A stretch of 64,000 nt of DNA from an uncultured Chromatiales bacterium. Lineage in GTDB: Bacteria > Bacteroidota > Ignavibacteria > SZUA-365 > CAYQST01. The notes below the pieces were generated by a model. The model made no database searches, was not told where the DNA came from, and was given only the letters and a program-made list of their open reading frames with translations. A program made the position numbers and the translations under genes. Positions 1,186 through 25,370 of the stretch are shown here, in pieces; positions within the stretch are counted from its first letter, which is position 1; each line of letters begins with the position of its first letter. The stretch spans positions 100,804-164,803 of the forward strand of contig CAYQST010000004.1 in the NCBI GenBank assembly GCA_964420295.1, in the 5' to 3' direction.

Positions 1186-1590
1186 TCAGTCAAGGTATTC
1201 GAGGTAATACTCATGAACCGTATGACCTTCATCGTCTTCATATGACGAGTTTAATGTGGGTCCATTAATACAGATCGAAAGTTTGATTCTTCCTACACCG
1301 TGATTTCCCGGGTCGACAACAACTTTCCCATTCCCATCAGCTTCGATGCATGTAATGGTCGGATTGTGCTCACACCCAACAAAGAGTGATTTCCCCTCAG
1401 ACGTCACACCGATGGACACATACGTCGCACGACCCGCGACAACGATCGCAATTGGCGCGAGGTTTGACTGCATGTCGTGATGCAAGATGACAGCTGGGAT
1501 GAGTTCGATCGGTGACGTTGCATACAACGTCGGACTGAATTGCCCTATAAGAAGGAATAGGGCGATGACAATTGGCAGAGTCCTCATCAT
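1186..1590 (-). CDS. small secreted hypothetical protein
   Basis: ORF 1186..1623(-); internal start MMRTLPIVIALFLLIGQFSPTLYA is a signal peptide; no recognisable family. Confidence 0.35.
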   Translation of the reverse strand: MMRTLPIVIALFLLIGQFSPTLYATSPIELIPAVILHHDMQSNLAPIAIVVAGRATYVSIGVTSEGKSLFVGCEHNPTITCIEADGNGKVVVDPGNHGVGRIKLSICINGPTLNSSYEDDEGHTVHEYYLEYLD

Positions 1591-1671
1591 AGCACCTGGA
1601 AATGTGAATAATGACGACGCCAATTTGATAAAAAAAAAAAGAATAAATACAAGTCATTATTCTAGTACCAT

Positions 1672-2940
1672 CTACCACCCCGCCTCCACTACCAGTCCGA
1701 TCTGGTGGATGTGATAGTCGTGATACTCATTGTTGCTTTCGTTGCGCCAATAGGTGTAGGTGCCGCCGACGGACAAATGGAAGCCGCGCCCAGCGGGAAG
1801 GATCGGATACATCACCTGTGCGGAGACACTCCAGCGACGATCCTTCCGCTTCGGATCTCCCGGAAGGGTGAGGCCGTCCATATCGGTGGCGACGCGGGGA
1901 TAGCGCTTCCAATAGGCGAGAGCCGACACCGTGGCGGTGAGGGGACCGAAGAGGGGACCAGTCGCTGTGAGGTCGAGTTCATCGGATTCATATCCATAGC
2001 GATCGTCGAACACGTCGTCCTCGTTGCCGTAATCCAAATCCTCGCGATCGAGATAGCGCGCCTTCGATTCGGGATTGATCCGCTTCGTCCAGGCCAGACT
2101 CCCCGTCCAGGATCCGCCGGGTTGAAGCGACAGTCCCGCGACGAGCGAGAGCTGCTGCGTGGCAGGGGCCTCCCAGGTGGTGATCACTTCCTGCCAGTAC
2201 ACACGCCGCCCTTCCCGTACTTCCACCCAGGTGGTGTCGGTTTTGGATTCCGTGTATTCCTTGTACCCAAACATTCCTCCGGCAAACACCTCCACGGGCT
2301 CCGCCACCCGGGCGCTCAGCACCAGTCCCCCGTTGAACTCCCAATGCGTGAACAGATTCAGAAACGGATACGCCTTGTATTCCGCGTCCGCCACGAGCCG
2401 CGCCATCACGGGACCCGCGACGTGCCGACGAAGGGTCGCTCCCACGCCCCCCATCCGATAATCATAGAACATCCATCGGCTCCGATCGTACCGCGCGCCC
2501 ACATAGGGCTTCACCACCAGATAGGTAAGAAGACTGTCCGCCGCGATTCCCGCATCCCTCTTCACCCCTTCACTCTTTACTCCTTCACGCTCCTCTTCTT
2601 CCTCATCCTCATCCTCGTGTTCTTCCTCGTCCTCCTTCCCGTCCAGCTGCATCTGCAAGAAAGCGCCCGCCAGATGCTGATGATAGGTGCGGTCGGCCAC
2701 CCGTTGGAATTGCACCCAGGCCCCGTAGTAGAAGAGCTGCGTGAAGCTGTAGTCCGTTTCGATGTCGTAGGACAGGGATCCGAAGATCTGATGATACACA
2801 TCGGGCTTCTTGACACGATAGGCGAAGGAATTGTCGTCGTACACACTCAGAGTCTGCACTCCTCCCGCCCATTGCGCGTGAAGAGGTGAGCACAGGAGCA
2901 GGATCATCACGGACCAACGAGGAATGAAGGACAGGCGCAT
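1672..2940 (-). CDS. outer-membrane beta-barrel protein (putative EPS export porin) with acidic low-complexity insert
   Basis: Start MRLSFIPRWSVMILLLCSPLHAQ (signal peptide) overlaps GT stop by 1 nt (TAATG); alternating amphipathic strands, C-terminal ...VVEAGW aromatic terminus typical of OMP barrels; DGKEDEEEHEDEDEEEEERE acidic run. Confidence 0.6.
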   Translation of the reverse strand: MRLSFIPRWSVMILLLCSPLHAQWAGGVQTLSVYDDNSFAYRVKKPDVYHQIFGSLSYDIETDYSFTQLFYYGAWVQFQRVADRTYHQHLAGAFLQMQLDGKEDEEEHEDEDEEEEEREGVKSEGVKRDAGIAADSLLTYLVVKPYVGARYDRSRWMFYDYRMGGVGATLRRHVAGPVMARLVADAEYKAYPFLNLFTHWEFNGGLVLSARVAEPVEVFAGGMFGYKEYTESKTDTTWVEVREGRRVYWQEVITTWEAPATQQLSLVAGLSLQPGGSWTGSLAWTKRINPESKARYLDREDLDYGNEDDVFDDRYGYESDELDLTATGPLFGPLTATVSALAYWKRYPRVATDMDGLTLPGDPKRKDRRWSVSAQVMYPILPAGRGFHLSVGGTYTYWRNESNNEYHDYHIHQIGLVVEAGW

Positions 2941-4217
2941 TATTGCGGACTCCCGTGCGTAGGGGTGAAGCGAACCGTTTTGGCCCAGGTCTGTTTTTCC
3001 TTCTTGATGTTGTCCAGCCAGAATGCGCGGGCCACTACGAAGATCCAAAGCTGACAATAGGTGAGGTACATCAGGGCAATAAGCGCGAGAGCGGAGAAGG
3101 AGTCCTCGCGATCGTAGGAGAGCGCGAGAAAGATCTCCGCGAAGAATAAGAGAATGGCAAACACCCAGACAAGAGTGTAGGGACCGGGCAGCGCGATGGA
3201 TACGAGGTTCATCGCGGAGACGAGGAAGAGCAGGTCGCTGATGAGGATGGCAACAAAGAAAATGTAATACAGAGCCAAACTGTAGGCCACTTCGAATCGA
3301 AGCTTGAAGCCGGGGATCTGCTTCATCATGCGGAAGAACTTGCGTGAGACATAGTTATTTCCCCGTACCCAACGGGTGCGCTGTTTCAGCCACACCGCCC
3401 AGGTCTCCGGCTCCTGTTCCCACGTCACCGCGTAGGGAATGGTTTTGATCTTCCAGCCATGAATGTACATGCGGATGCTAAACTCCGAATCCTCGGTGAT
3501 CGCCTCCTCATCCCAGCCTCCCAGATCCGCGATGATGGATTTGCGGATCACATAATTCGTCCCCGGCAGGGTGGCGATGCTCAGCAGCTTCCAGCGTCCC
3601 GCCTGAAGGATGGATTGAAAACTCAGGGTCTCGATGTTGATGAAGCGGGTCAGCAGGGTCCGCCGCTTGTTGATCGTACGGAACTTACCCAGCACCGCGC
3701 CCAGCTCCGGATGCAGCAGAAGCTGCGCCACGAGATAACGCAGGGCTGCGGGCTCGGGGGTGTTGTCCGCATCGTAGATCGCCAGAATCTCGTGACGGGC
3801 GATGCCGATGCCAAGATTGAGGGCGCGGGACTTCCCCTTCCCGCCCTGTCCCGCAGGCACATCGTACAGGATCACGCGGGGATCCCGGGCGGCCCGCTCG
3901 AGAATGATCTCGCGGGTGCGATCGGTGCTGCCGTCGTTGATGACGATGATCTCGAGCCGATCGTGGGGATAGTCCAGCGCACACATCGCGTCGATGGTGT
4001 CGCCAATCACCACATCCTCGTTATGCGCGGGAATGAGAATCGATACGGGTGGAAAATCAAGATCCATGCCATCCACCGCTCGTTGTTCCTTCCGCGAGGA
4101 TTGATAATGGAAAAATCCCGCCACCGTGAGGATGAGCTGCCAGCCGATCATGAACCAGATGAGGATGACGGCGATGACGAAGAGAATGCTGAGATCGAGT
4201 TCAAGAAACGGGGACAC
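2940..4217 (-). CDS. family-2 processive beta-glycosyltransferase (PgaC/IcaA/cellulose-synthase-like polysaccharide synthase)
   Basis: ILIPAHNED..., YDADN (DxD), TEDSEF, QRTRWVRG (QxxRW) motifs plus N- and C-terminal TM helices; start uncertain (GTG at 4217 preceded by GGAGG; ORF-track ATG at 4307 would overlap upstream gene by 107 nt; ATG at 4151 also possible). Confidence 0.85.
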   Translation of the reverse strand: MSPFLELDLSILFVIAVILIWFMIGWQLILTVAGFFHYQSSRKEQRAVDGMDLDFPPVSILIPAHNEDVVIGDTIDAMCALDYPHDRLEIIVINDGSTDRTREIILERAARDPRVILYDVPAGQGGKGKSRALNLGIGIARHEILAIYDADNTPEPAALRYLVAQLLLHPELGAVLGKFRTINKRRTLLTRFINIETLSFQSILQAGRWKLLSIATLPGTNYVIRKSIIADLGGWDEEAITEDSEFSIRMYIHGWKIKTIPYAVTWEQEPETWAVWLKQRTRWVRGNNYVSRKFFRMMKQIPGFKLRFEVAYSLALYYIFFVAILISDLLFLVSAMNLVSIALPGPYTLVWVFAILLFFAEIFLALSYDREDSFSALALIALMYLTYCQLWIFVVARAFWLDNIKKEKQTWAKTVRFTPTHGSPQ

Positions 4218-7200
4218 GGGAGCCTCCACTCGCACGAAGAGCCGGGCGACGCTGAATGCGAATGATGATATAAAACACCAGGAGCGCGATGCAGGCCAGG
4301 AGGCCAAAAAGCACGATGGCGGTGGAAGACCAGAGACTGGTCAGGTTGATGCCGTACCAGACGGCGCCCTGGGTCACCAAATGAACATGATGCCGACCGG
4401 GAGGCAACATCAGACTGTATCGCCCCGAGCCCTTCATCGGCACACAGGCCTGCTCCCGTCCATCAATATACAGGGCTTCGGGCCGCTTGTTCAGCGTGAT
4501 CAGACAGCGCGTGTCGCTCTCGTAGCCGAAGTCCACACTCCGCACGCTGCCACGCTCATACAGCAGATTGCCGCTGATCGACAACAGGGTGGCGCGCAGC
4601 TCATCGGCGGAAAACACGCCGCTGATGTCGGGATGGGTGTTGATGGTGTGGGATCCCGCCGGAATCAGAAAACGCCCGTCCCCGGCGGACATGAAAATCT
4701 CCCCATCCACCGTCACGGCGCGATGATCACTGTCGAGCGTGAGCGTGAAGGACGTGGGCGAGGACACGGACATGCGGGTACCGGAGCGGGTGACCTGCAC
4801 GGGACTCGCCGACGCATAGCTCATCAGACTCAGGTCCTGGGGATTGATGCTCGATTCCGCATACGTGATCACGCGCGGTGCCACCCGGCTGGTGACGGCC
4901 TGGAGCATGAAGGCCTCGGTGCCGGTCTGTACCAGGGTCGGGAAGAGCGTGGGCTTCTCGGGTGTACGGAAGGAGAGGATGTTGACGTCGAGAGCCAGGT
5001 CCTTGCCCAACAAGGCCGCGTAGCGGGTCGCGATGGACTCGTAGCGGCGGGGATCCTCGCTCCAGCGGGACAGGGGATCTTCGACGTTCAGCACAAAGGG
5101 ACGAAGAGCACGCAACGAGAGAACCGCTTCGATGTCAATACCGTGATTGCGGCGCAGTTCGGGACTGTGCAGGTTGTCCAACGCCGTCACGACAAGATCG
5201 AAACCGGGGCGCTTCTTCGAGAAGGGCAACAGCATACGCAGAAGGCGTTCATGCATGTGCGTCATGAACTCGACGCGGTAGTCCTCAAATTTCTTCCATG
5301 CCGCGACATCCCGCTTCCAGAAGAGGGGTGAGGAGGGATCGAGCAGGGACACAGGATCAAAGCCAGCCCTCCGCTTCATATCCGCCCGAGCGGACGGGTG
5401 CATGGGCGTGAGGAGGTTCGGTTCGTCGGGCCCTCCCACGCCGCTTTCGAAGTAGACTTCTCCGATATTCACTCCATCGAAGTCGTGCTTCTCGAACAGG
5501 TCGCGGTACTTGTCCACCATCGCGTTCACGCAGGCCGGATCCGTCATCGCCATGGGGTAGCGCCACGAGGGACGCACGTCCTGCCCGAGTCTGTTCTTCT
5601 CCCTCCATTCCGGATGCTCGATCCAGAATTTTTGGGACACCTGTGGCGGCTCGATCCACCCATACACGAGGATGCCATTGGCATGGCAGAGCTCGATCAG
5701 CTTGTCGTAGTCGTAGGTGTACTTGGGATACTCGTGCCAGGTGGCCACGTGGATGGCGCGAATGCCCACCGAGGTCCACATCTTCACCAAGTCCTCGACA
5801 CTGATGGTATTGCGATATCCAGGATCGAAGTACAGTTCGAGATTGTCTCGTCGAACGACGGGAAACACCTTGAAGTACTTGGTCATGTAATGCGCGAGAT
5901 AGGGAAAGCGACTGTATCCGGCGTCGGAGACGGGATCGAAGCGGCAGCCGAAGTAGAGAATCTTTCCCTTCTCGAAGGTACGCCCCACCACCACGGGGGC
6001 GCCAGATTCTTCGTCCGTGGCAAAGATCTCGTCGTCGTCCTGGGCCTCGAATTTGATGAGGGGTTCAGGAATCCGCCAGGCGATCATTTCATCTGGAAAG
6101 AGACGATCCCGCAGTCGGGACACCGGTGTCGTGGTGCCGGTCGAGACGACGCCGAATTCCTTCGAAAGTTCCGTCTTCGCGTCGAGAATGCAGTTCCCGC
6201 CGTTTCGCACCCATTCCACCAGACGACTCATCATCAGATCATTCATCACTTCGACAGAGCCATACGGAGCGACGATCAGGTTGTAGGAGCCGCAGGAAAA
6301 AGAGGAGCGGGCGGGCAGGGTATCCACCGGAATGTTTAGCCAGCGGAAGGCATTCAAAAAGCTGCGTTGATCCAGCATCGCTCCCCCGTGGGCCTTTTCG
6401 TCCCAGAGCAGCCCTACCCGGGCCTCGGCGCGGAGGGTTCGCTTCTCCGTCATCGACGAAAAGGCCGTGGAGATATCCTTCCACAAATTCTCGAAGAAAC
6501 CGGTGGAGTGCTCGCGCAGCTCCGTGGGCTGGGCCACATACAGACTTCCGTCGGAAAGCTGCACCTTTCGCGTGATGCTCCCTCGAATGCGCTCGGGGAG
6601 GATCTGCGTGTGTCCCACACTTCCGTCTCGCTGAATCCAGGATTCCTGAAGAAACTGATCCGCGAGGGAAAGGGTGACCTCTCCCTTGCCCGTTACGATC
6701 GCGCGGTTCGGGAGTCTCACGATGTTGATATCGTTCTTCACATCCACATAGGTGAAGCCCCGCTCCTTGATGCCGCGCACCAGTCGTTTCAGGTTCTCCA
6801 GCGGCACGAAGGAATGATAGAAGCAGCTCGCCCATCCGTCGCGGGTCTGCACCACCGTGCTCGCATATTTCAGGATGTTGGTCACCTGATCGACGGAGAT
6901 CTGGGGATCGTCGGGATCGAAGGGAATGTAGCCGAGGTTTTCGGGATAGATCTTCTGTCCGAAATTGTCGCGGTAAATGAGGTACGGGAAATACTGACTG
7001 TAATCGGCGTTGTCGATGGCCAGGCGCTGTTCCATCGCGGTGGAGAAGATCGAGGCCGCCGCAGCATAGGCGGTTTGCGAGCCCGTGTAGTGCGGGGTCT
7101 CCCAGAGCACGGGATAGATGCCGTTCCGCATGCACTCCTCCACGCCGGCCAGAATTTTGTCGCGATCTCCGCCCAGGGTTTCCTCCTTGATCGGTCCGCT

Positions 7201-8151
7201 TCGACTCACATCCCAAAATTCAAAGTCCGCCGCCGTCACGCCCTTGTATTGATGGGTGCTGCCATGCATGGCCACCGTCCCGCCTTTGCTCACCATGTAA
7301 TGAATGGCATCGACCAGATCCGGCTTGTCCGACAGACTGATACGCTCGTTCCGTGTGGGATCGACATAGAAAGGAATGAGGGTGATGATGAAGGGCACGC
7401 CTTCGTCATACAGCACGTCGGCCACATCACGCAGACGATCGGGGTCCTCGAGGGGATGCACGTCCTCGATGCGAAGGAGAGCCTTGTGCGACACGGGATG
7501 GTATTCTCCCAGCACGTCGTGCAGCAGATCCGCGAAGAGCAGGTAGCGATCGCTTTCTGTCGCATAGGCAAAGGGATTGTCGGCCACGTACCAGAAGTTA
7601 CCTGAGCGCAGAACATAGGGCGAGGAAGCGCGCTTTGCCTGGGCCGTGGCGATCACCGCGCATCGGGAGGGATCGGTCACCTTCATCAGCACGAGGTTGG
7701 TCTCTTCCTTCGTGAATACCGCCGAACCTCGTCGAACGGTGTTCCAAGCCGTCACGGTGTCGATACTCAGGGGCAACATCCCGAGCCGGGCGCCCATGGG
7801 AAAGGAGCGCGCCAGGGGCTGAATACCCGTGTACATCCAGAGCAGCGTGGCAGTGCGCTTTCCGACATCCGCCATCAAAGCGGCGGGTGGCTGGAAGTGC
7901 AGGGAATGGCCAATGACACAGGCGACATCGAACTTCTCCATCTGTCCCGCTCGATACTCTTCCGCAGACAGCACCGTGACCGTCGTGCGAAAATGTCCCA
8001 GCAGGGCGGCCATTTGCCGACCGTCACCCCGTGCGGGACTCAGCGCCTGCGGCTTTCCCTCATACACCACCAGCACAGAGCGTGTGGGCTGGGACCAGGC
8101 TGAGCCGATCACCAGCAGAAATAAAAGCGGGAGAGAACGAATCCCGGTCAT
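4201..8151 (-). CDS. secreted multidomain polysaccharide-modifying enzyme: DUF2334/NodB-like deacetylase + GATase1-like + TIM-barrel glycoside-hydrolase-like (GHL) domains, C-terminal TM anchor
   Basis: Signal peptide MTGIRSLPLLFLLVIGSAWSQ; HGSTHQYKG..FEFWD deacetylase-like block; LIVAPYGSVEVMNDLM...NGGNCILD GATase1-like; IRAIHVATWHEYPKY...GILVYGWIEPP..FWIEHPEW GHL TIM-barrel block; C-terminal hydrophobic helix IVLFGLLACIALLVFYIII followed by RRP..; ATGA overlap with upstream gene. Confidence 0.7.
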   Translation of the reverse strand: MTGIRSLPLLFLLVIGSAWSQPTRSVLVVYEGKPQALSPARGDGRQMAALLGHFRTTVTVLSAEEYRAGQMEKFDVACVIGHSLHFQPPAALMADVGKRTATLLWMYTGIQPLARSFPMGARLGMLPLSIDTVTAWNTVRRGSAVFTKEETNLVLMKVTDPSRCAVIATAQAKRASSPYVLRSGNFWYVADNPFAYATESDRYLLFADLLHDVLGEYHPVSHKALLRIEDVHPLEDPDRLRDVADVLYDEGVPFIITLIPFYVDPTRNERISLSDKPDLVDAIHYMVSKGGTVAMHGSTHQYKGVTAADFEFWDVSRSGPIKEETLGGDRDKILAGVEECMRNGIYPVLWETPHYTGSQTAYAAAASIFSTAMEQRLAIDNADYSQYFPYLIYRDNFGQKIYPENLGYIPFDPDDPQISVDQVTNILKYASTVVQTRDGWASCFYHSFVPLENLKRLVRGIKERGFTYVDVKNDINIVRLPNRAIVTGKGEVTLSLADQFLQESWIQRDGSVGHTQILPERIRGSITRKVQLSDGSLYVAQPTELREHSTGFFENLWKDISTAFSSMTEKRTLRAEARVGLLWDEKAHGGAMLDQRSFLNAFRWLNIPVDTLPARSSFSCGSYNLIVAPYGSVEVMNDLMMSRLVEWVRNGGNCILDAKTELSKEFGVVSTGTTTPVSRLRDRLFPDEMIAWRIPEPLIKFEAQDDDEIFATDEESGAPVVVGRTFEKGKILYFGCRFDPVSDAGYSRFPYLAHYMTKYFKVFPVVRRDNLELYFDPGYRNTISVEDLVKMWTSVGIRAIHVATWHEYPKYTYDYDKLIELCHANGILVYGWIEPPQVSQKFWIEHPEWREKNRLGQDVRPSWRYPMAMTDPACVNAMVDKYRDLFEKHDFDGVNIGEVYFESGVGGPDEPNLLTPMHPSARADMKRRAGFDPVSLLDPSSPLFWKRDVAAWKKFEDYRVEFMTHMHERLLRMLLPFSKKRPGFDLVVTALDNLHSPELRRNHGIDIEAVLSLRALRPFVLNVEDPLSRWSEDPRRYESIATRYAALLGKDLALDVNILSFRTPEKPTLFPTLVQTGTEAFMLQAVTSRVAPRVITYAESSINPQDLSLMSYASASPVQVTRSGTRMSVSSPTSFTLTLDSDHRAVTVDGEIFMSAGDGRFLIPAGSHTINTHPDISGVFSADELRATLLSISGNLLYERGSVRSVDFGYESDTRCLITLNKRPEALYIDGREQACVPMKGSGRYSLMLPPGRHHVHLVTQGAVWYGINLTSLWSSTAIVLFGLLACIALLVFYIIIRIQRRPALRASGGSRVPVS

Positions 8152-10550
8152 TGCACGATCACCATTTTCGTGATGCGATGAGATCCTGTCTGAAGGTGCA
8201 GAAAGTAGGTGCCCGAAGATGGAAAAACCGTGCGGGGCAGCGCAAGCCAGCCTTCACGATCGGAGGCAGCGAGAAGGGTCGAAAGATCGGCCAGACGAAT
8301 GCCGCGAAGGTCATGCAGAAACAGGTGAACGGCCTCGCGATCCTCCTCACTCCATCGCACGCGAAGCATCACATCTCCGTGACTGGGATTGGGTGTCACG
8401 TCGAGTGAAGACGGCTGGAAAGGAAGGCTGGCGTCGGAAAGAACGAGAAGGGGAGAGAGGGTTTCCGTGCCATCATAGTCTCGCTGGATGAGACGGTAGG
8501 TGAGCTCGCGGCGGGACGCATCCTCGCGCGTATCAGAAAATGCGTAATGGCGTGGCTCGACGCTGGTGCCCGCACCAGGCAGGAACCCGCGCTCTCTCCA
8601 TTCGTCCCCGTCCAGACGCTGAATCCTGAATCCGGCGTTCCCGGTCTCCGAGGCGGTGGACCAGCGCAGGTGTACGACGCGGCCATCGATCTGTCCGGAA
8701 AAGGCCTGTAGTTCCACCGGCGTGGGATAGGACTGGGAACTGAGCGTCATTCCAAAGTCCCCCACCGCCACCACGCGACCGGCGCTGCTCGACACCCCGT
8801 ACAGCGCGTACTGCGCATAGCTCAGCTCCTTCGTCCAGGTATATCCCCAGTCGTCGCTTCGAAGAATGCTGCCATTGTCCCCCACCGCACAGAGGGTGCC
8901 GGGGATCGTGGCGGTCATATTGTACAGCGCCGATGAGGTGGGTGGCGTCTGCGTGTCCCAGGTGACTCCGTAATCGGTGGAGATGAGCACCGCACCCGCG
9001 TCTCCCACGATCGTACCCATGGCACCTGCCGTGAATACACCAAAGAGCGCGTCCTGGGTGTAACTCTGCTGGGGATACCAGTTCTGACCGCCGTTCACGG
9101 TAATGATGATCGTGCCGTTCGCACCCACCACGGTTCCGACCTGAGGATCCTCGAAATGCATGGCGTAGAGGGATTGCGAGGTTCCGGTGGCGCAGGCGAT
9201 CCATGAGCCGCCTCCGTTCGTGGTGCGGAGCACCGTGCCTCCCACGCCCGCAGCGAATCCGACGAGAGGAGAGATGAAGCGAATCGTGTTGAGGGTCATC
9301 GTCGTGCCACTGGGCTGGGCGCTCCAGTTCATGCCTCCGTTGGCACTGTACAGAATCGTACCGCCCGCGCCGCATACCCACACGTTGTTCGCGTCCGTGG
9401 CCGAGGCCCCGTAGAGATTCTGCGTCGTACCCGACACCTGGGGCGACCAGGATGCTCCACCATTGGCGCTGGCGAGAATGTCCCCATTGTCCCCCACCGC
9501 CCAGATCATGCCAGCGCCAAAGTTTGTCACCCCGTTCAGCGTCGTGCGGGATCCCGTGGTGATAGCGGTAAATGTGCCCGGCAGTGCAGCGGTATAAATT
9601 CCTCCAAATACCCCGACGGCCACGACGGTGGTTCCGGACGAGGCCAGCCCTTCGAGTCCATTCGTCGCGCCGGACGCGAAGGGGACCCAGATTTGGCCTC
9701 CATTCGTGGTGAAGAGCACGGTGCCCAATTCGCCCACGGTCACGCCGGTATTGAGGTCGAGAAAGCGAACCTTGTTGAGATCCGTGGTGGTATTGGTGGT
9801 TTGCCGCGTCCACTGAGCGCCGCCATTGGTGGTGCACAGAATGGTGCCGTTCGTGCCCGCCGCCCAGCCGTTCTGCGCATCCACGAAGAACACCCCGATC
9901 AGATCGAAGAGACCCGGACCCGGGATCGTGATGCTTGTCCACGTCTGCCCACCATTGGTGGTTTTTCGGATTGTTTTGGATGCACCCACGGCCCAGCCAT
10001 TCTGGGCGTCGACAAAGAAGATATCGTTCAGATTGTTGGTCGTGTTGCTGGTCTGCGCCGACCACAGGGCTCCCCCGTTGGTCGTGTGTCGAACCATCCC
10101 CGCATCGCCCACCACCCAGGCTTCGGAAGACGAAATGGCGAAGATCTCGTTGATCCCCAATGTCACGCCGGAGGGCTGAGGAGTCCAGGAGAACCCTCCA
10201 TCCTGGGTGAAGAGAATCGTACCATCGTCGCCCACGACCCAGGCGTCCATCGTCGTGGGGGCCGCCAATCCCCGCAGAAAACTCATCGTGCCGCTTGGTC
10301 GATGGCTCCAGGTTTGTCCGCCATTGCCGGACACCAGAATCATGCCTCCCCCTCCCACGGCCCAGCAGGTCGAGGATGCGGGAGAGAACTCTGCGCACCA
10401 CAGGTCGTTGCCCTGGGGCGTGGGATTGTTCCATTGCCACTGTGCGACGGCGAGAGGACCCGAGGCCAGGACCAGAAGGGGCAGGAGGACGAGGAGGAAA
10501 GAGAACGGGCGAAGGGACATGGCTGAGCTGGGGTTGTGGCTTTGCTTCAT
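8148..10550 (-). CDS. BNR/Asp-box (Ycf48-like) beta-propeller protein with T9SS C-terminal sorting domain
   Basis: Signal peptide MKQSHNPSSAMSLRPFSFLLVLLPLLVLA; >12 repeats of TTNGGxxW / S-x-D-x-G-x-T-W; C-terminal ~80 aa match Por_Secre_tail pattern (...GTYFLHLQTGSHRITKMVIVQ); stop overlaps start of 4201..8151 gene (ATGA). Confidence 0.75.
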   Translation of the reverse strand: MKQSHNPSSAMSLRPFSFLLVLLPLLVLASGPLAVAQWQWNNPTPQGNDLWCAEFSPASSTCWAVGGGGMILVSGNGGQTWSHRPSGTMSFLRGLAAPTTMDAWVVGDDGTILFTQDGGFSWTPQPSGVTLGINEIFAISSSEAWVVGDAGMVRHTTNGGALWSAQTSNTTNNLNDIFFVDAQNGWAVGASKTIRKTTNGGQTWTSITIPGPGLFDLIGVFFVDAQNGWAAGTNGTILCTTNGGAQWTRQTTNTTTDLNKVRFLDLNTGVTVGELGTVLFTTNGGQIWVPFASGATNGLEGLASSGTTVVAVGVFGGIYTAALPGTFTAITTGSRTTLNGVTNFGAGMIWAVGDNGDILASANGGASWSPQVSGTTQNLYGASATDANNVWVCGAGGTILYSANGGMNWSAQPSGTTMTLNTIRFISPLVGFAAGVGGTVLRTTNGGGSWIACATGTSQSLYAMHFEDPQVGTVVGANGTIIITVNGGQNWYPQQSYTQDALFGVFTAGAMGTIVGDAGAVLISTDYGVTWDTQTPPTSSALYNMTATIPGTLCAVGDNGSILRSDDWGYTWTKELSYAQYALYGVSSSAGRVVAVGDFGMTLSSQSYPTPVELQAFSGQIDGRVVHLRWSTASETGNAGFRIQRLDGDEWRERGFLPGAGTSVEPRHYAFSDTREDASRRELTYRLIQRDYDGTETLSPLLVLSDASLPFQPSSLDVTPNPSHGDVMLRVRWSEEDREAVHLFLHDLRGIRLADLSTLLAASDREGWLALPRTVFPSSGTYFLHLQTGSHRITKMVIVQ

Positions 10551-10753
10551 GAATGCACGATGGATGAGGGACGATGTAAAGGTACGATCCCAAAGAATGA
10601 GATGCAGATGACCCTTCGTCGGGATGCGGTTCTCGGCGACCGTGTCACAGAAAGGTACGGGGAAAGGAATGGATCGATCCACCGTCAGCGGTACGCGGCG
10701 GACCTTGAGAAGACCACGGGGAGGGGAGGATTGTTACAGAGGAGGGAAGACGA

Positions 10754-13306
10754 TCAGAATTCGATTTCCAAACCCGCAATGGGGAAAAACGCCCATTGGT
10801 ACACGGTGTCCCGTGTGCCGTCGTCGTTGTACCGAATGCCCGCGACATTCTTCGTGTTGAGCACGTTTTGCACGGACAGATACAGTGCGAGATTCCAGGA
10901 GGACAGGTTCCAGCGGGACAGCCATGTCAGATCGAGGCGCTGGTAATCCGGATGTCGGGCTCCATTGATATCGCGGGTCCGAACCCAGGTTCCCGTGCCC
11001 CAGGCCAACCCCCCTTCGCGATGCTGTTCGGTGCTCAGATAGGTGCGCGGGGTGTAGGGCGTGCCCGAGGAAAACCGATAGCGGAGTCCGAATTCCATGT
11101 TGTCGGCGAAGGGCAGGAGATAGGAAGGATATCGAACAAACCAGGGCTGGGAGTCAAGAGAGGTTCGCAGTCCATGGACCACGGTGCCGAGCACCACGGT
11201 CAGGATTTGGGGATAGTCGTACGGCGCGGTGTAGTACTCGGATCGTGGGTGGACCCGTGGATCCTTCCATCGCGTCTCGCTGATGCTGTAACTGATCGTA
11301 CCGAAGAAGTCGTCCACCAGTTTTTTCTGTAGAAAAAACTCCACGCCTCGACTCGTGCCTTCTCCGATGCTCAGCGTGCGATCGGATCGGAAGGTGGGAT
11401 CGTCGTCATGCAGAAATTCTTCTGAAACGGGAAGATCGCGAAAGGATTTTTCATAGACCTCCACCGTCGCCTTGAGGCCTCCGTCCATGATGTGCTCGAT
11501 CCCCGCCACGATATGGCGTGCATGGCTGTTGTCGAGATGACGATTCACCCCGGTGTTCCGGCGATCCATGTAGAGTGGATAGGCGAGGGTCTGCGAGTAT
11601 TCTCCATAGGAAATATTCAGGGACGTGGAGGGCAGCACGCGCAGTGAGCCGCTCATGCGGGGACTCACCACGCTCTTTCCTGAATACGTGAAGTGATCGG
11701 CACGGAGGCCGAGCGTGACATGGAGGGCGTCGAACAGGCGGATCCGATCGGACAGGTAGGCACTCAGTTTCTGTTCGTCAAAGGTGGGCAGGGCGAGATC
11801 GATATATCCACCTCTGGTCACGACCTCGCGCTCAAAGTCTCCATTGCCATCGAGATCATAGCGGGCAGTATCGTTGTCCCAGGACGTGGTGGCAAGAAAG
11901 GGCAGATTGAACTTCACCTGGGCTCCGAACGCGATTTCATGTGCGGGATGGGGTGTGGTCACTCCATCGAGCTTGAAGATCCCTTCGGATTGATTGGAGG
12001 CCTCGTCGAATACATGCCGCGCATTCAAGACCTGTGTGTCCGAAACACGGCCATCAGCCGTGAACCGGCGTGCCGTATAGTCCATACGCACATCGGACCA
12101 ATAGCTGTTGCCGATCCCCGCCAACGTCAGCACCGTGTACGTATGCTCGCTCCATAGACTGCGCAGACTCAGCCCTGCCGCATACTGGCGACTGTGAAAA
12201 TCTACCGTGGCCACTCCCACGCTATCCTGCATCCCCGCCTTCTCCATCCGAGTCTCGTCGCTTTCTCCCGCGAAGAGGATGCGATCATCTCCGTAAATGC
12301 CGGAGAACTGGATGCGGTGCACATTCGAGAGATCGTACACCACCTTCCACTGGGCATCCCAATATCGAGGGATTGAGGTGAGCCCGATCGACGAGAGTCC
12401 CACGATCTCGTCGGCCACCTCGAGAAAACTCTTTCGTACCGACACCAGCCAGGATCCACGCTCCTGGGCGAATCCTCCTTCCAGCACCGCCGAAAATCCC
12501 GCCATGTTGAATCCCACGTTGGTGGCGAGCGCTCGGCGTCGATCGCCTTCACGGATGGTAATGTCCATCGCCGAGGACAGCTTGTCTCCATATTGCGCGC
12601 CAAAGCCGCCCGTCGAAAAGGTGATGTCCTCGATGAGGTCCACGTTCACCATGTTGATGGGTCCGCCGGAGTTGAACTCGTTCGGATAGTGATTCGTGGA
12701 GGGGATTTCCACATGATCCATCACGGTGAGGTTTTCGTTTGGCGAGCCACCCCGCACCAGCAATTCGTTGTTGTAGTCGTTGGAACTGGCGACCCCGGGC
12801 AGGATATGCATGATCCGCATCATGTCCATCGCCGATCCCGGAGATCGCTTGATCTCCTCGGCCTGGAGTCCGATGGAACTCACCACGTTGGTGTTTTTTC
12901 CCGAAGAGAAATAATCCGCCTGCACGACGACTCCATTCATGGACACCGCTTCCTCACGAAGAGTGATGGTGACCTGAGCCGGACGTCCCGTGCTGACCAC
13001 GATATCGGTGGTGACCACCGTAGTGTATCCCACGTACGTCGTGCGCAGACTGTATTCCCCAACCGGCACGGAGAATCGAAACCGACCGTCTCCATCCGCC
13101 GTCGTTCCCATTCCTTCTCTCCCCACCACCTGGATCGTGGCGCCTGCCAGAGGGCGACGCGTGGACGCATCGATCACGACGCCGTGAATCAGTCCGGTAT
13201 GAGACTGCGCTTCCGCGACGCACGAAAGCAGAACCAGAATGATGAAACAGAGACCGACAATTCGAACCGAACGGAACTGCGTCGAAGGAAGGAATGAGAT
13301 GCGCAT
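10754..13306 (-). CDS. TonB-dependent receptor (carboxypeptidase-regulatory-like N-domain + plug + beta-barrel)
   Basis: Signal peptide; GVVIDASTRRPLAGATIQVVG...TTADGDGRFRF CarbopepD_reg-like; plug region; long barrel ending ...AGLEIEF (C-terminal Phe). Confidence 0.85.
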   Translation of the reverse strand: MRISFLPSTQFRSVRIVGLCFIILVLLSCVAEAQSHTGLIHGVVIDASTRRPLAGATIQVVGREGMGTTADGDGRFRFSVPVGEYSLRTTYVGYTTVVTTDIVVSTGRPAQVTITLREEAVSMNGVVVQADYFSSGKNTNVVSSIGLQAEEIKRSPGSAMDMMRIMHILPGVASSNDYNNELLVRGGSPNENLTVMDHVEIPSTNHYPNEFNSGGPINMVNVDLIEDITFSTGGFGAQYGDKLSSAMDITIREGDRRRALATNVGFNMAGFSAVLEGGFAQERGSWLVSVRKSFLEVADEIVGLSSIGLTSIPRYWDAQWKVVYDLSNVHRIQFSGIYGDDRILFAGESDETRMEKAGMQDSVGVATVDFHSRQYAAGLSLRSLWSEHTYTVLTLAGIGNSYWSDVRMDYTARRFTADGRVSDTQVLNARHVFDEASNQSEGIFKLDGVTTPHPAHEIAFGAQVKFNLPFLATTSWDNDTARYDLDGNGDFEREVVTRGGYIDLALPTFDEQKLSAYLSDRIRLFDALHVTLGLRADHFTYSGKSVVSPRMSGSLRVLPSTSLNISYGEYSQTLAYPLYMDRRNTGVNRHLDNSHARHIVAGIEHIMDGGLKATVEVYEKSFRDLPVSEEFLHDDDPTFRSDRTLSIGEGTSRGVEFFLQKKLVDDFFGTISYSISETRWKDPRVHPRSEYYTAPYDYPQILTVVLGTVVHGLRTSLDSQPWFVRYPSYLLPFADNMEFGLRYRFSSGTPYTPRTYLSTEQHREGGLAWGTGTWVRTRDINGARHPDYQRLDLTWLSRWNLSSWNLALYLSVQNVLNTKNVAGIRYNDDGTRDTVYQWAFFPIAGLEIEF

Positions 13307-13469
13307 GAAGAAGGGGGGAAGAATGGAATGAAGGGAGGCGATCCTCCGGGGAAGGATGCCATACGACCTTCCCGGGGCAAAGTTACGAGCGGATCAGCAC
13401 GCCCCTCCATCACTCGTGTCGAGCGATACCAAGCGGTGGAGCTGGCCCTGGGTGCCGGCCCGTCACAGA

Positions 13470-18230: not shown

Positions 18231-18369
18231 GACTGAAAGTATTCCGAGCGTGCGGGAGATGCAAGACGAGAGCGAATCTTCCGTGCACACTTTTCCACTC
18301 TCGAGCAGGAATTCCGTCTTCGCGGATTCCTGTGTATTTTTTCACTCACCCCACAACTTCGGAGACGCC

Positions 18370-19041: not shown

Positions 19042-19049
19042 AAATGACA

Positions 19050-19075
19050 AAGGGCCGCCGAAGCGGCCCTTTTCT
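19050..19075. terminator. bidirectional rho-independent terminator between convergent AIM24-like gene and ferredoxin
   Basis: agggccgc-cgaa-gcggccct hairpin followed by TTTT on plus strand and by T-rich run on minus strand. Confidence 0.6.
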
Positions 19076-24400: not shown

Positions 24401-25161
24401 ACAACGGATGGTTCGCGTCGTCCAATATCGGGCGCTCTCCAGCGGGAGATGCGTTTGTGCTCCGCACGACCAACGGGGGAAGGAACTGGACTGCGTATTC
24501 GAGCATCACACCCGCCGTTGGTGGCGTGGGATTCCTCTCGAAAACCGCAGGATTCCTGGTGGACAACGTGACGGGAGGAACCCGCCGGACCACCAATGGA
24601 GGCGTGGCCTGGCGCACCACCACCTATCCCATGAATCGTTCCCGTTGCGCGGGCATCTGGGCCGACTCGGCCAGCCGCATCACGGCGGTGGCGACCGACA
24701 GTGCCGTGTGGTTCAGCAGAGATCTCGGCACGACCTGGACGAGAACCGCGCTCGTTCTCAGCGGGTTTGTGCAGGACATGGCCTTTGCCGATTCCACCCT
24801 TGGTTGGGTGATCACGAAGAACGGGGTCTTGCAGGAACTCCTCGCCAATCCCCTGGTGGGCATTGCCGCAGGTCCCGACGCGTTGCCCCGTGAGAACACC
24901 CTCGGCCAGGCCTGGCCGAATCCCTCCACGATTCGGGATGCCTCGATCCTCATTCCGTTCCGCCTCTCCCGTCCCTCGCCTACCCTGCTTCGCGTGTTCA
25001 ACAGCGGGGGCAAGCAGGTGGCCGTGATTGTGGATCGCGATATGCCGGCCGGAGACCACACTGCGGTCTTCGATGCCAGCGCATTGCCTGCTGGCATGTA
25101 CTTCTATACCCTCGATCTGCCGGGCTTCCGCATGACGGGGAGGATGGCGGTGATGCGGTAG
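21424..25161 (+). CDS. large BNR/Asp-box repeat beta-propeller protein with T9SS C-terminal sorting domain
   Basis: Signal peptide MRRAATLSFLSLSVTWILILFG; ~14 S/T-x-D-x-G-x-T-W repeats (STDGGTTW, SKDGGLTW, TTDGGESW...); C-terminus LGQAWPNPS...LRVFNSGGKQVAVIV...LPAGMYFYTL...MAVMR = Por_Secre_tail pattern. Confidence 0.8.
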   Translation: MRRAATLSFLSLSVTWILILFGIAGGDLYSQIATPDQDAVTMPRVEKVRARFEYFWNRVSYPGGQVPSGARTQAFWQSQKLPAFAPSVRHAGMDLTWVNKGPDNIGGRILAIAVNPKNPRTIFIGAANGGVWRTFDEGASWHSVSDDFPTQAMGAIVINPVDTNIVYAGTGEASFGQHTFDGAGLMKSTDGGTTWFQIGQSTLPDFARFSDFAINPIDPNILYAALPDGMRSDTLAGIWRSKDGGLTWALVLTGVMTDIVINPIDPSILYTVSSVVFGGGSAARFGMYKTTDGGESWFPVDMGLPSTQMGRTSLAICATQPDILLAGVSEITGNERTWLKALVKSTNGGTTWTPLTVPFDYMVSQGWYDNIVGIHPTNPSILYAGGVKLIRSGDGGTTWERIPDQGFGGILHVDQHAIEFNPLDPDRVYIGNDGGFYIGTQEGKNWIKSDLGLSITQFIGGAMHPTDERFLFGGTQDNGSMLSTGAPRFDPVLYGDGGNGAVNPAKPNVLYTTQENLSLHRSDDFGRTWIRALGDIAVQSSLFYISYAMDEKNPETLHLGTYRMFKTTNEGRNWTLAKDCLFPTGTSCYYISAVSVAPYNSNLVMAGATGGMVALSQDAGTTWNVLPTTDLPAAYCSAVRSFRANEIYATYSRYGVSKVWHSTDLGVTWTDRNGDLPDIPVNDILVLDNTILLGTDLGCFASTDQGTHWTRFGSGMPALSVQKLIWHSETGIIRAITHGRGMYDLVWNAPSAKAPVFLSQAPASTLEPGQPFTYVPVVSARPAPRFRLLEGPSDATCDPVHGIVRWNGNAASARFRLEASNSEGTAEQTFTLGTHAAPTGAWKVTTQHFPEEVQCLSNVGRSILWVGQDSAKVSISQDRGLTWSHVSIPGTRAAVFTIVPFDARFAYAGTRDGRVVKTEDGGLTWTTLLYRTNSGFGNLHFWSRTEGIAVTVGDKDSADVFLTQDGGATWTRQFPRPFARAPINRTMTFLDRDNGWFASSNIGRSPAGDAFVLRTTNGGRNWTAYSSITPAVGGVGFLSKTAGFLVDNVTGGTRRTTNGGVAWRTTTYPMNRSRCAGIWADSASRITAVATDSAVWFSRDLGTTWTRTALVLSGFVQDMAFADSTLGWVITKNGVLQELLANPLVGIAAGPDALPRENTLGQAWPNPSTIRDASILIPFRLSRPSPTLLRVFNSGGKQVAVIVDRDMPAGDHTAVFDASALPAGMYFYTLDLPGFRMTGRMAVMR

Positions 25162-25370
25162 AGAGGGCCTCGAGCCGGTCCACGAAGTCCCAGATGGTAC
25201 ACCTGTGCTGTGCATCATCGTGTTGCGGTTTGTGACCGTGCCTCCCCACGGGTTCCTTCCGGGACAAGGTCCAACAGCACCTCGGATTCCCTCCCCTGTC
25301 AAGGAGGTAATTTCCGTCTTGTTCATAGCCCTCGTGGTCAATAGCTTGCAGGCACTTTCAAGGTGGAGGT

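What the first reader, a model, noticed from the sequence alone, without database searches (positions are those of the whole stretch)
4201..8151. 1316-aa secreted multidomain enzyme with C-terminal membrane anchor: PgaB/PelA-like logic, different architecture
After an N-terminal signal peptide the protein contains four recognisable parts:
- a block with HGSTHQYKG...FEFWD typical of the DUF2334/NodB-like deacetylase fold;
- a class-I glutamine-amidotransferase-like/beta-galactosidase-trimerisation-like segment (LIVAPYGSVEVMNDL...NGGNCILD);
- a TIM-barrel GHL-type glycosidase-like segment (IHVATWHEYPKY...VYGWIEPP...HPEW);
- ~350 aa of beta-rich sequence ending in a single TM helix plus a short basic tail.

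A periplasm-facing modifier tethered to the inner membrane by a C-terminal anchor next to its synthase is unusual. PgaB is a lipoprotein and PelA is soluble.
Basis: partly seen in the sequence, partly recalled or inferred. Interest (0 to 1): 0.7.

Follow-up and report, generated by a model that had tools for sequence, protein, structure and literature searches.

The report
Membrane-tethered exopolysaccharide-modifying giant enzyme
This is a real, widely conserved but uncharacterised 1316-residue periplasmic protein, anchored in the inner membrane by its tail and always encoded next to a sugar-polymer synthase, that most likely trims acetyl groups from and cuts or guides a secreted biofilm-type polysaccharide.

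Summary
The ORF is real. It lies at 4201-8151 on the minus strand and encodes 1316 aa.

Domains, from Pfam and two confident AlphaFold2 half-models (pLDDT 90 and 89):
- a new N-terminal alpha/beta domain;
- DUF2334, with a deacetylase (CE4-like) fold;
- a small beta-sandwich;
- a GH42-middle / GATase1-like domain;
- a TIM barrel, about 350 aa;
- a beta-sandwich, about 145 aa;
- a TM helix with a conserved motif.

At least 514 species-level genomes carry relatives (Ignavibacteriota, Bacteroidota, Acidobacteriota and others). A PgaC-like GT2 synthase follows immediately in 76 of 76 loci where the contig continues. An outer-membrane barrel candidate, a BNR propeller and a UDP-GlcNAc 2-epimerase (31/80 loci) recur nearby.

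Best reading: a tail-anchored, PgaB-like modifier of a beta-linked N-acetylhexosamine exopolysaccharide, combining deacetylase and glycosidase-like parts. The anchor has a precedent in BcsB.

No enzyme activity or substrate is shown. This is a new variant of a known kind, of moderate interest.

The parts
4201..8151 (-). Whole gene: 1316-aa tail-anchored periplasmic multidomain protein (stop codon at 4201-4203)
   Evidence: ORF list and translation. More than 120 full-length homologues. 514 relatives among species-representative genomes.
8092..8151 (-). Signal peptide, aa 1-20 (MTGIRSLPLLFLLVIGSAWS | QP). No lipobox cysteine.
   Evidence: Read directly from the sequence. An N-terminal hydrophobic segment is detected in 29/41 homologues by a crude hydropathy scan. 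The cleavage site is inferred, not predicted with SignalP.
7579..8088 (-). N-terminal alpha/beta domain, aa 22-191. No Pfam family. Conserved ARGDxRQ..LLGHF motif.
   Evidence: AF2 N-half model, pLDDT above 90 in this region, with a beta-alpha-beta pattern followed by beta strands. Invariant G42, L50, G52, H53, F54. Also present in the short-form Ralstonia proteins, which match aa 23-470.
6754..7548 (-). DUF2334 domain with a CE4/NodB-like deacetylase fold, aa ~202-466. Candidate catalytic residues: E229, D230, H296, H300, E351, H354, H446.
6523..6726 (-). Small beta-sandwich, aa ~476-543, followed by a linker helix (aa ~552-567)
   Evidence: Secondary structure of the AF2 N-half model. No family assignment.
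5944..6417 (-). GH42 middle-domain / class-I GATase-like alpha/beta domain, aa ~579-736. No conserved nucleophile Cys, so probably non-catalytic.
4807..5859 (-). (beta/alpha)8 TIM barrel, aa ~765-1115. Conserved polar residues near the strand ends: D776, W805-H806, E834, D892/N895/E898, D992, E1024-D1025, D1055/N1057, E1099.
4372..4797 (-). C-terminal beta-sandwich region, aa ~1119-1260
   Evidence: The AF2 C-half model is all-beta here (model residues 380-521). Function is inferred (carbohydrate binding or spacer).
4204..4323 (-). C-terminal TM helix (aa ~1277-1299, coordinates 4255-4323) plus a basic cytoplasmic tail (aa 1300-1316)
   Evidence: A hydropathy peak is present in 41/41 homologues, with the conserved motif TSLWSSxxIVxFGxxxxxxLxxFYxxVR and 2-9 K/R in the last 20 residues. 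AF2 gives one long helix at aa 1263-1307.
2940..4229 (-). GT2 processive synthase, PgaC/IcaA-like, ~429 aa. The start is uncertain: GTG at 4229, 4235 or 4217. It overlaps the 3' end of the big gene.
   Evidence: Pfam Glyco_tranf_2_3, E=1.3e-32. NCBIfam TIGR03937 scores 179 bits, below its cutoff of 422. 31% identity to E. coli PgaC, E=1e-36, with YDADN, ITED and KQRTRW motifs. Found immediately downstream in 76/76 loci that continue. Sequence at the junction.
1672..2940 (-). Candidate outer-membrane beta-barrel export protein, 422 aa. The ATG at 2940 overlaps the GT2 stop (TAATG).
   Evidence: Signal peptide MRLSFIPRWSVMILLLCSPLHA|Q and C-terminal ...VVEAGW. Homologues lie directly downstream of the GT2 in at least 28 loci, and 15/21 end in an aromatic residue. 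There is no Pfam or PDB sequence match. The barrel itself is inferred, not modelled.
8148..10682 (-). BNR / Ycf48-like beta-propeller protein, 844 aa, with a weak T9SS C-terminal sorting-domain match. Its stop overlaps the big gene's start (ATGA).
   Evidence: Pfam PSII_BNR, E=2.6e-47. TIGR04183 scores 21.2 bits against a cutoff of 23. PDB Ycf48, E=1e-24. ATGA overlap seen. Present in 35/80 related loci.

Best explanation
The gene encodes the periplasmic modifying subunit of a synthase-dependent exopolysaccharide system. The cassette in the window is BNR propeller, this protein, a PgaC-like GT2 synthase and an outer-membrane barrel.

Proposed mechanism:
1. The protein is exported by its signal peptide. 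It stays tethered to the inner membrane by its C-terminal TM helix, with the basic tail in the cytoplasm.
2. The GT2 synthase polymerises and translocates a beta-linked N-acetylhexosamine polymer (GlcNAc and/or ManNAc).
3. The DUF2334 domain removes some N-acetyl groups by CE4-like metal-dependent chemistry. Proposed ligands are D230, H296 and H300, with E229 as base and H446 as acid.
4. The PgaB-GH153-like TIM barrel binds the partly deacetylated chain and probably cleaves it.
5. The two alpha/beta modules and the beta-sandwiches act as scaffold or carbohydrate-binding parts that hand the chain to the outer-membrane barrel.
6. The conserved TM helix probably packs against the synthase, as BcsB does with BcsA, or as PgaD does with PgaC.

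Shown: gene reality, domain folds, residue conservation, topology signals, synteny.
Inferred: every catalytic activity, the substrate, and the TM-synthase contact.
For: Folds:
- Both models are confident: pLDDT 90.1 and 88.6.

Conservation:
- E229, D230, H296, H300, E351, H354 and H446 are invariant. So are conserved acidic or polar residues near the ends of the eight barrel strands.
- The core DUF2334 motifs persist in a 30%-identical Bacillus YdaL-like protein.

Synteny:
- The GT2 is directly downstream in 76/76 loci and is more conserved (58-74% identity) than the big protein (43-56%).
- Start and stop codons overlap between neighbouring genes.
- The GT2 is 31% identical to PgaC and carries the D, D, D, QxxRW motifs.
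- A UDP-GlcNAc 2-epimerase lies directly upstream in 31/80 loci.
- Short-form DUF2334 proteins sit in Ralstonia nfrB-nfrA-epimerase operons. The Nfr system is argued from genetics to use UDP-ManNAc as precursor (PMC8669472).

Topology and precedents:
- The C-terminal TM helix is present in 41/41 homologues with a conserved motif.
- BcsB is a tail-anchored periplasmic co-synthase (PMC8892547).
- PgaB combines deacetylase and hydrolase activities (PMC5933820).
Against: - There is no sequence-level similarity to PgaB, ArnD or any PDB chain outside the GH42-like domain.
- There is no hit to Pfam Polysacc_deac_1 and no NCBIfam family at all.
- TIM-barrel matches to GH42, Cwp19, GH35 and beta-amylase score nearly as well as PgaB, so the fold does not fix the substrate or even prove hydrolysis.
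- I could not superpose residues, so the metal triad is assigned from motif position and strand ends only.
- The window has no epimerase and no PgaD-like gene.
- The outer-membrane barrel is inferred from sequence features only.
- Stand-alone copies of the C-terminal module occur away from any GT2, so that module is not restricted to synthase systems.
Confidence: 0.6

Rival explanations
1. The protein is mainly a BcsB-like co-polymerase or periplasmic guide. Its essential part would be the conserved C-terminal TM helix that completes the synthase channel. The periplasmic domains would bind and steer the polymer without catalysis, so the enzyme-like folds would be pseudo-enzymes.
For: - The topology is the same as BcsB: signal peptide, alternating alpha/beta and beta-sandwich modules, tail anchor (PMC8892547; models).
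- The TM sequence motif is conserved in 41/41 homologues.
- The GATase1-like domain lacks a conserved nucleophile.
- No PgaD-like partner gene is present.
Against: - Histidines and acidic residues sit at canonical CE4 motif positions and near the barrel strand ends, and they are invariant. They persist at 30% identity in Bacillus. This pattern is typical of active sites.
- There is no BcsB Pfam hit.
- The two roles are not mutually exclusive.
Confidence: 0.2
2. The protein is a catabolic, surface or periplasmic glycan-degrading enzyme of a nutrient-uptake locus, working with the nearby TonB-dependent receptor, BNR protein and S8 peptidase. The adjacent GT2 would be incidental.
For: - A TonB-dependent receptor, a BNR propeller and an S8 peptidase lie upstream on the same strand.
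- Structural neighbours of the TIM barrel include many degradative GH families.
- Stand-alone C-terminal modules occur without a GT2.
Against: - The GT2 follows in 76/76 loci with overlapping genes. In contrast, the receptor appears in only 3 and the peptidase in only 4 of 81 loci.
- An inner-membrane tail anchor next to a synthase does not fit an uptake enzyme.
- A UDP-sugar epimerase is the commonest upstream neighbour.
Confidence: 0.07
3. The protein is a cell-wall (peptidoglycan) remodelling enzyme that combines a peptidoglycan deacetylase with a Cwp19-like glycan hydrolase.
For: - Many CE4 hits are peptidoglycan deacetylases.
Against: - The strict pairing with a PgaC-like processive synthase, an outer-membrane barrel and a UDP-GlcNAc 2-epimerase points to a secreted polymer.
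- Related short forms sit in Nfr-type and Yda-type exopolysaccharide operons.
Confidence: 0.05

Closest known systems
PgaB (E. coli / Bordetella BpsB), the PNAG de-N-acetylase plus GH153 hydrolase of the pgaABCD system
   Same: - A periplasmic two-activity layout: a deacetylase-fold domain followed by a TIM-barrel domain.
- It is encoded next to a PgaC-like GT2 (31% identity), with an outer-membrane protein in the same operon.
   Different: - No sequence similarity (hhalign probability 0.7-2%) and no NCBIfam PgaB hit.
- Twice the size, with four extra modules.
- A DUF2334 domain rather than a Pfam CE4 domain.
- A C-terminal TM anchor instead of an N-terminal lipid anchor.
- No PgaD gene, and the outer-membrane protein lacks a long TPR part.
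- Strand 4 of the barrel carries D892...E898 rather than PgaB's H473-D474 (PMC5933820).
BcsB, the tail-anchored co-synthase of bacterial cellulose synthase
   Same: - Signal peptide, a multi-domain periplasmic part made of alternating alpha/beta and beta-sandwich modules, and a single C-terminal TM anchor.
- It is encoded beside a GT2 synthase (PMC8892547).
   Different: - No BcsB Pfam match.
- BcsB has no enzyme-fold domains.
- The partner synthase here is PgaC-like, short (~429 aa), and matches only glycosyltransferase families in Pfam, with no PilZ match.
YdaL of the Bacillus ydaJKLMN c-di-GMP-dependent exopolysaccharide operon (COG/JGI name 'uncharacterized protein YdaL')
   Same: - A shared DUF2334 domain: 30% identity, E=2e-40, to a 565-aa Bacillus thuringiensis YdaL-like protein, with the EDVHP, HGxTHQY, FEFWD and FYH motifs kept.
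- Paired with a GT2.
- YdaLMN are needed for an unknown exopolysaccharide (PMC5422440, PMC9800504, PMC13274460).
   Different: - The Bacillus protein is less than half the size and aligns only to aa 226-494.
- The window protein adds the GATase1-like domain, TIM barrel, beta-sandwich and TM anchor.
- YdaL itself has no demonstrated activity.
- I could not test whether YdaN corresponds to the C-terminal half.
Nfr (N4 glycan receptor) system, NfrB-NfrA-YbcH plus WecB, and its Ralstonia version
   Same: - In Ralstonia megaplasmids a 578-aa protein matches aa 23-470 of the window protein (31% identity, E~1e-58 to 1e-66 across records). It sits in an nfrB-like / nfrA-like / UDP-GlcNAc 2-epimerase operon.
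- The same epimerase lies directly upstream of the big gene in 31/80 related loci.
   Different: - The window's GT2 is barely similar to NfrB (E=4e-5 over 126 aa).
- The window has no epimerase.
- E. coli nfr has no DUF2334 gene.
PelA (Pel polysaccharide hydrolase/deacetylase) and Agd3 (fungal GAG deacetylase, CE18)
   Different: - The domain order and families differ.
- From general knowledge, PelA is soluble and its partners are not GT2 synthases.
- There is no sequence similarity.

Membership tests
Pfam DUF2334 (PF10096) | Match to the family HMM above the gathering score | tested here: met
   162 bits against a cutoff of 26, E=1.9e-47, aa 223-460, covering HMM positions 1-202 of 203. Matched in 36/36 homologues.
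CE4 / NodB-homology polysaccharide deacetylases | Distorted (beta/alpha) barrel NodB fold | tested here: met
   [not shown]
CE4 / NodB-homology polysaccharide deacetylases | Asp-His-His metal triad plus catalytic base and acid in motifs MT1-MT5 | tested here: inconclusive
   E229-D230 lie at the end of the first strand. H296-x3-H300 lie just after the third strand. WETPHY (aa 350-355) and FYH446 are also invariant. No residue-level superposition was possible, and hhalign to ArnD and PgaB is insignificant.
CE4 / NodB-homology polysaccharide deacetylases | Sequence membership (Pfam Polysacc_deac_1, PF01522) | tested here: not met
   No PF01522 hit at E<=0.1 in the window protein or among the top families of 36 homologues.
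PgaB / GH153 | Sequence similarity to the PgaB C-terminal domain (CAZy families are sequence-defined) | tested here: not met
   hhalign probability is 0.7% for the full length and 2% for the TIM slice against PgaB 310-672. There is no PDB sequence hit and no NCBIfam hit.
PgaB / GH153 | TIM-barrel fold closest to the PgaB C-domain | tested here: met
   [not shown]
PgaB / GH153 | Outer-membrane lipoprotein with an N-terminal lipobox Cys | tested here: not met
   There is no Cys in aa 1-30. The protein has a C-terminal TM helix instead. That PgaB is a lipoprotein is general knowledge.
PgaB / GH153 | Catalytic His-Asp at the end of barrel strand 4 (D474 in BpsB) | tested here: inconclusive
   The strand-4 region here reads D892-G-V-N895-I-G-E898, with D892 and E898 invariant. 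Equivalence to H473-D474 (PMC5933820) could not be checked without coordinates.
GH42 beta-galactosidases | GH42 catalytic domain (PF02449) followed by the trimerisation domain (PF08532) | tested here: not met
   Only PF08532 is matched (34.3 bits against a cutoff of 25.8). It lies before the TIM barrel, not after it. No PF02449 hit.
BcsB | Signal peptide, periplasmic domains and a single C-terminal TM anchor, encoded beside a GT2 synthase | tested here: met
   The BcsB description is from PMC8892547.
BcsB | Sequence membership (Pfam BcsB) | tested here: not met
   No such Pfam hit.
BcsB | The TM anchor contacts the synthase and is required for its activity | not testable with these tools
   This needs a complex model or an experiment. 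Only conservation of the TM motif is shown.
YdaL (Bacillus ydaJKLMN) | DUF2334 protein paired with a GT2 in an exopolysaccharide operon | tested here: met
   30% identity, E=2e-40, to a Bacillus thuringiensis YdaL-like protein that lies next to a GT2. JGI names many homologues 'YdaL'.
YdaL (Bacillus ydaJKLMN) | Same architecture (about 570 aa) and orthology to B. subtilis YdaL | tested here: not met
   The alignment covers only aa 226-494 of 1316. The B. subtilis sequence itself was not available.

The most novel reading that the evidence does not exclude
This family, together with its invariably linked GT2, would define a distinct and so far undescribed synthase-dependent exopolysaccharide secretion system, widespread in Ignavibacteriota, Bacteroidota and Acidobacteriota.

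In this reading one tail-anchored polypeptide merges three roles: a BcsB/PgaD-type co-synthase anchor, a de-N-acetylase of a new carbohydrate-esterase family (DUF2334), and a glycosidase of a new GH family. The substrate would be a beta-linked polymer that contains ManNAc.
Probability: 0.3. Interest if true: 0.65.

Novelty: new variant of a known kind. Interest (0 to 1): 0.5.

Why it matters
Synthase-dependent exopolysaccharide systems (cellulose, PNAG, Pel, alginate) are central to biofilm biology, but they are known almost only from Proteobacteria and Firmicutes.

This gene marks a conserved cassette in at least 514 species-level genomes of poorly studied environmental phyla. The cassette appears to solve the same problem, modifying the polymer in the periplasm so that it can be exported and function, with a different and much larger single protein.

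If the activities are confirmed, three things follow:
- DUF2334 would get a function. That would also bear on Bacillus YdaL and on the Ralstonia Nfr-like operon.
- It would add a carbohydrate-esterase family and possibly a glycoside-hydrolase family.
- It would provide candidate biofilm-degrading enzymes.

As it stands, this is a well-supported annotation upgrade, not a surprise.

Tried and rejected
1. 'Fusion of B. subtilis YdaL (569 aa) and YdaN (703 aa)'. This was suggested by the summed lengths, recalled from memory.
   - Stand-alone ~700-740-aa copies of the C-terminal module do exist.
   - Three of their contexts have no adjacent GT2.
   - A profile search with them returned 109 proteins, none from Bacillus and none named YdaN.
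   - The B. subtilis sequences were not obtainable, so the idea is neither supported nor excluded.

2. Sequence-level links to known enzymes.
   - phmmer and profile searches against PDB found only the GH42 middle domain.
   - hhalign of the family against E. coli PgaB (full length, N-domain and C-domain) and against ArnD was insignificant.

3. Internal duplication of the two alpha/beta domains. hhalign probability was 0.4%, so this is not shown.

4. The GT2 as an NfrB orthologue. Rejected: E=4e-5 over 126 aa, against E=1e-36 to PgaC.

5. Identity of the outer-membrane barrel. The profile found no PDB or Pfam match.

6. A c-di-GMP or other riboswitch upstream. Rfam found nothing in the window.

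7. Sigma-70 promoter scan. Counts were no better than in shuffled sequence.

8. AFDB50 fold search. The library was unavailable.

9. Literature on DUF2334. Two incidental mentions only.


Full report
**Observation.** The ORF list shows a single ATG-to-stop frame of 1316 codons at 4201..8151, on the minus strand. All quoted peptide motifs are in the translation. The N-terminus (MTGIRSLPLLFLLVIGSAWS|QPT) reads as a Sec signal peptide without a lipobox cysteine. The C-terminus has one strongly hydrophobic helix (about aa 1277-1299) followed by QRRPALRASGGSRVPVS. The gene is not a chance ORF. A search of 5.8 billion proteins returned one 97%-identical protein and more than 120 full-length homologues of 1303-1351 aa at 45-59% identity. 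Their sources name them 'DUF2334 domain-containing', 'uncharacterized protein YdaL' or 'polysaccharide deacetylase family protein'.

**Domain anatomy.**
- Pfam gives DUF2334 (aa 223-460, E=1.9e-47) and Glyco_hydro_42M (aa 596-663, E=2.2e-8, above the gathering score). NCBIfam gives nothing.
- Scanning 36 homologues shows DUF2334 in 36, GH42M in 34, GHL6 weakly in 17 and DUF4350 in 14.
- Against PDB sequences, only the GH42 middle domain is detectable (4oif, E=5e-5, with the family profile).
- I modelled the protein in two overlapping halves, each with an 81-row alignment. For aa 22-765, pLDDT is 90.1 and pTM 0.73. For aa 740-1316, pLDDT is 88.6 and pTM 0.86.

The models give this order of parts:

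| Part | Residues (approx.) |
|---|---|
| Signal peptide | 1-20 |
| alpha/beta domain, no family | 22-191 |
| DUF2334 barrel | 202-466 |
| Small beta-sandwich | 476-543 |
| Linker helix | 552-567 |
| GATase1-like alpha/beta domain | 579-736 |
| (beta/alpha)8 barrel | 765-1115 |
| All-beta region | 1119-1260 |
| One long helix containing the TM segment | 1263-1307 |

However, the '~350 aa beta-rich' tail is mostly TIM barrel, and two domains were missed.

**Conserved residues.** In 41 aligned homologues the following are invariant:
- In DUF2334: E229, D230, H296, G297, T299, H300, Q301, Y302, D309, E311, W313, D314, W350, E351, T352, P353, H354, F444 and H446.
- In the barrel: D892, E898, D992, E1024, D1025, D1055, N1057 and E1099. 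D776, W805, H806 and N895 are conserved in at least 90% of sequences, and E834 is the consensus residue (at least 50%).

Mapped on the model's secondary structure, E229-D230 end the first DUF2334 strand, as the CE4 'TFDD' motif does. H296-x3-H300 follow the third strand, as 'H(S/T)xxH' does. H446 follows a late strand, as 'LxH' does. The barrel residues sit at or near the C-terminal ends of the eight strands, where TIM-barrel active sites lie. The same DUF2334 motifs (EDVHP, HGxTHQY, FEFWD, E-x-PHY, FYH) survive in a 565-aa Bacillus thuringiensis protein at 30% identity. This pattern argues for catalysis rather than a purely structural role. I could not superpose coordinates, so the assignment of a metal triad is an inference. 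The GATase1-like domain has no conserved cysteine at the nucleophile position and is probably a scaffold.

**Topology.** All 41 homologues have a C-terminal hydrophobic helix with the motif TSLWSSxxIVxFGxxxxxxLxxFYxxVR and a basic tail. By the positive-inside rule, the bulk of the protein faces the periplasm and the tail faces the cytoplasm. Sequence conservation inside a TM helix suggests a specific partner in the membrane.

**Genomic context in the window.** Four genes are translationally coupled on the minus strand:
- an 844-aa BNR/Ycf48-like propeller with a weak T9SS-tail match, whose stop overlaps the big gene's start (ATGA);
- the big gene;
- a ~429-aa GT2 whose 5' end overlaps the big gene's 3' end;
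- a 422-aa protein whose ATG overlaps the GT2 stop (TAATG).

The GT2 is PgaC/IcaA-like: TIGR03937 scores 179 bits, below its cutoff. It is 31% identical to E. coli PgaC (E=1e-36) and has the YDADN, ITED and KQRTRW motifs. The last protein has a signal peptide and ends in ...VVEAGW. Its homologues mostly end in an aromatic residue. It has no Pfam or PDB match. I infer an outer-membrane export barrel but did not model it.

**Conservation of context.** A scan of one genome per species (185,579 species) found 514 relatives. They are labelled Ignavibacteriota, Bacteroidota, Acidobacteriota (including Thermoanaerobaculaceae), some 'delta-proteobacterial / Syntrophobacter' and 'Chromatiales' MAGs, and others. 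I examined 81 loci.
- The GT2 follows immediately in 76. In the other five the contig ends.
- The GT2 is more conserved (58-74%) than the big protein (43-56%).
- Clustering the neighbours gave three recurrent partners: the BNR protein (35 loci), a UDP-GlcNAc 2-epimerase directly upstream on the same strand at a gap of 21-300 nt (31 loci; PF02350, E=4e-119), and the barrel candidate directly downstream of the GT2 (28 loci) (also seen in L001).
- The window itself has no epimerase.
- The TonB-dependent receptor and the S8 peptidase that lie upstream in the window recur in only 3 and 4 loci, so they are not part of the system.

**Modularity.**
- The C-terminal part (aa 560-1316) has 628 relatives among 1.84 billion cluster representatives. 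These include 1628-1766-aa forms with an extra N-terminal GHL6 barrel, and stand-alone 700-740-aa forms. Three stand-alone contexts lack a GT2.
- The N-terminal part (aa 23-470) occurs as a 578-aa protein on 136 Ralstonia megaplasmids. In one annotated example it sits in an operon with an NfrB orthologue (39% identity to E. coli NfrB, E=2e-134), an NfrA-like protein and a UDP-GlcNAc 2-epimerase.
- The E. coli Nfr system is argued from genetics to build its glycan from WecB-supplied UDP-ManNAc (PMC8669472).
- In a Bacillus thuringiensis plasmid, a YdaL-like DUF2334 protein lies by a GT2.
- In Bacillus, YdaLMN are needed for an unknown c-di-GMP-dependent exopolysaccharide (PMC5422440, PMC9800504, PMC13274460).

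So DUF2334 modules recur next to three different GT2 synthase subfamilies, twice together with a ManNAc-forming epimerase.

**Mechanism proposed.** The GT2 makes and translocates a beta-linked N-acetylhexosamine polymer. GT2 enzymes invert the anomeric configuration; this is established knowledge. The sugar is inferred from the deacetylase fold, the PgaC similarity and the epimerase linkage. The tail-anchored protein sits beside or on the synthase. Its DUF2334 domain partially de-N-acetylates the chain, and its PgaB-like barrel binds and probably cleaves it. PgaB itself cleaves partially deacetylated PNAG (PMC5933820). The chain then leaves through the outer-membrane barrel. The BNR propeller, possibly surface-exposed, acts later. 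The conserved TM helix may play the part of the BcsB anchor, which is indispensable for BcsA activity (PMC8892547), or the part of PgaD. My confidence in the overall role is about 0.6. It is lower for each specific activity.

**Rivals.**
- A non-catalytic BcsB-like guide (0.2). It is compatible with the topology but sits poorly with the invariant active-site-like residues.
- A catabolic enzyme (0.07). It is contradicted by the 76/76 linkage to the GT2.
- A peptidoglycan-remodelling enzyme (0.05). It is contradicted by the context.

**Comparison and novelty.** The protein works like PgaB (deacetylase plus hydrolase-like barrel) and is tethered like BcsB. It fails the sequence-based membership tests for PgaB/GH153, CE4 (PF01522), GH42 and BcsB. 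It is a member of Pfam DUF2334. The family is already deposited many times and loosely named, but I found no functional literature on DUF2334 and no solved structure by sequence. I rate it a new variant of a known kind and of moderate interest. It gives a testable function to DUF2334 and flags an unstudied exopolysaccharide system in environmental phyla, but it would not surprise a specialist.

**Dead ends.** These are listed under 'tried and rejected'. The main one is the YdaL+YdaN fusion idea, which I could not test for lack of the B. subtilis sequences.

Noticed in passing
window 8148-10682 (-): An 844-aa BNR/Ycf48-like beta-propeller protein with a sub-threshold T9SS C-terminal sorting domain (21.2 bits against a cutoff of 23). 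Its stop overlaps the big gene's start (ATGA). It recurs in 35/80 related loci, either upstream or downstream of the cassette. Its role is unknown; a surface glycosidase or a binding protein are possibilities.
   Followed up: partly
window 1672-2940 (-): A 422-aa protein with a signal peptide and a C-terminal ...VVEAGW, and no Pfam or PDB match. It is a likely new family of exopolysaccharide outer-membrane export barrels. Homologues follow the GT2 in at least 28 loci.
   Followed up: partly
related loci, e.g. L072:695-1864, L001:8762-9913: A UDP-GlcNAc 2-epimerase (PF02350) lies directly upstream of the big gene in 31/80 loci. This hints at a ManNAc-containing polymer. No such gene is found in the 64-kb window.
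   Followed up: yes
L088 (Ralstonia solanacearum CP047137, 678234-686566): An Nfr-type operon: nfrB-like, nfrA-like, UDP-GlcNAc 2-epimerase, a hypothetical protein, a 578-aa DUF2334 protein and another hypothetical protein. The short-form DUF2334 protein is present on 136 Ralstonia megaplasmids; the operon itself was read in this one record. E. coli nfr lacks the DUF2334 gene.
   Followed up: partly
proteins P0126, P0170, P0261 (1628-1766 aa; Sumerlaeota and others): Longer relatives carry an additional N-terminal GHL6/GHL10-type TIM barrel before DUF2334, so they have two barrel domains in one protein.
   Followed up: partly
proteins P0133-P0228; loci L083-L085: Stand-alone 700-740-aa copies of the GATase1-like, TIM-barrel and beta-sandwich module. 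They have no DUF2334 and no match to the C-terminal TM helix, and in three contexts they are not next to a GT2. Their function is unknown.
   Followed up: partly
window 10754-18290 (-) and 19049-19072 (-): A CarboxypepD_reg TonB-dependent receptor (850 aa) and a 1606-aa S8 peptidase lie upstream on the same strand. A strong terminator-like hairpin precedes the peptidase gene. Neither gene is conserved with the cassette (3 and 4 of 81 loci).
   Followed up: partly
[not shown]
   Followed up: no
window 21841-25398 (-) and 59331-61259 (-): Three ORFs of 587, 597 and 642 aa have no Pfam match at E<=1e-5. A 1293-aa ORF on the opposite strand overlaps the first two.
   Followed up: no
window 1186-1623 (-): A 145-aa ORF with an N-terminal hydrophobic segment lies just downstream of the barrel candidate. 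It did not cluster with any ORF from the other loci in the neighbour analysis.
   Followed up: no
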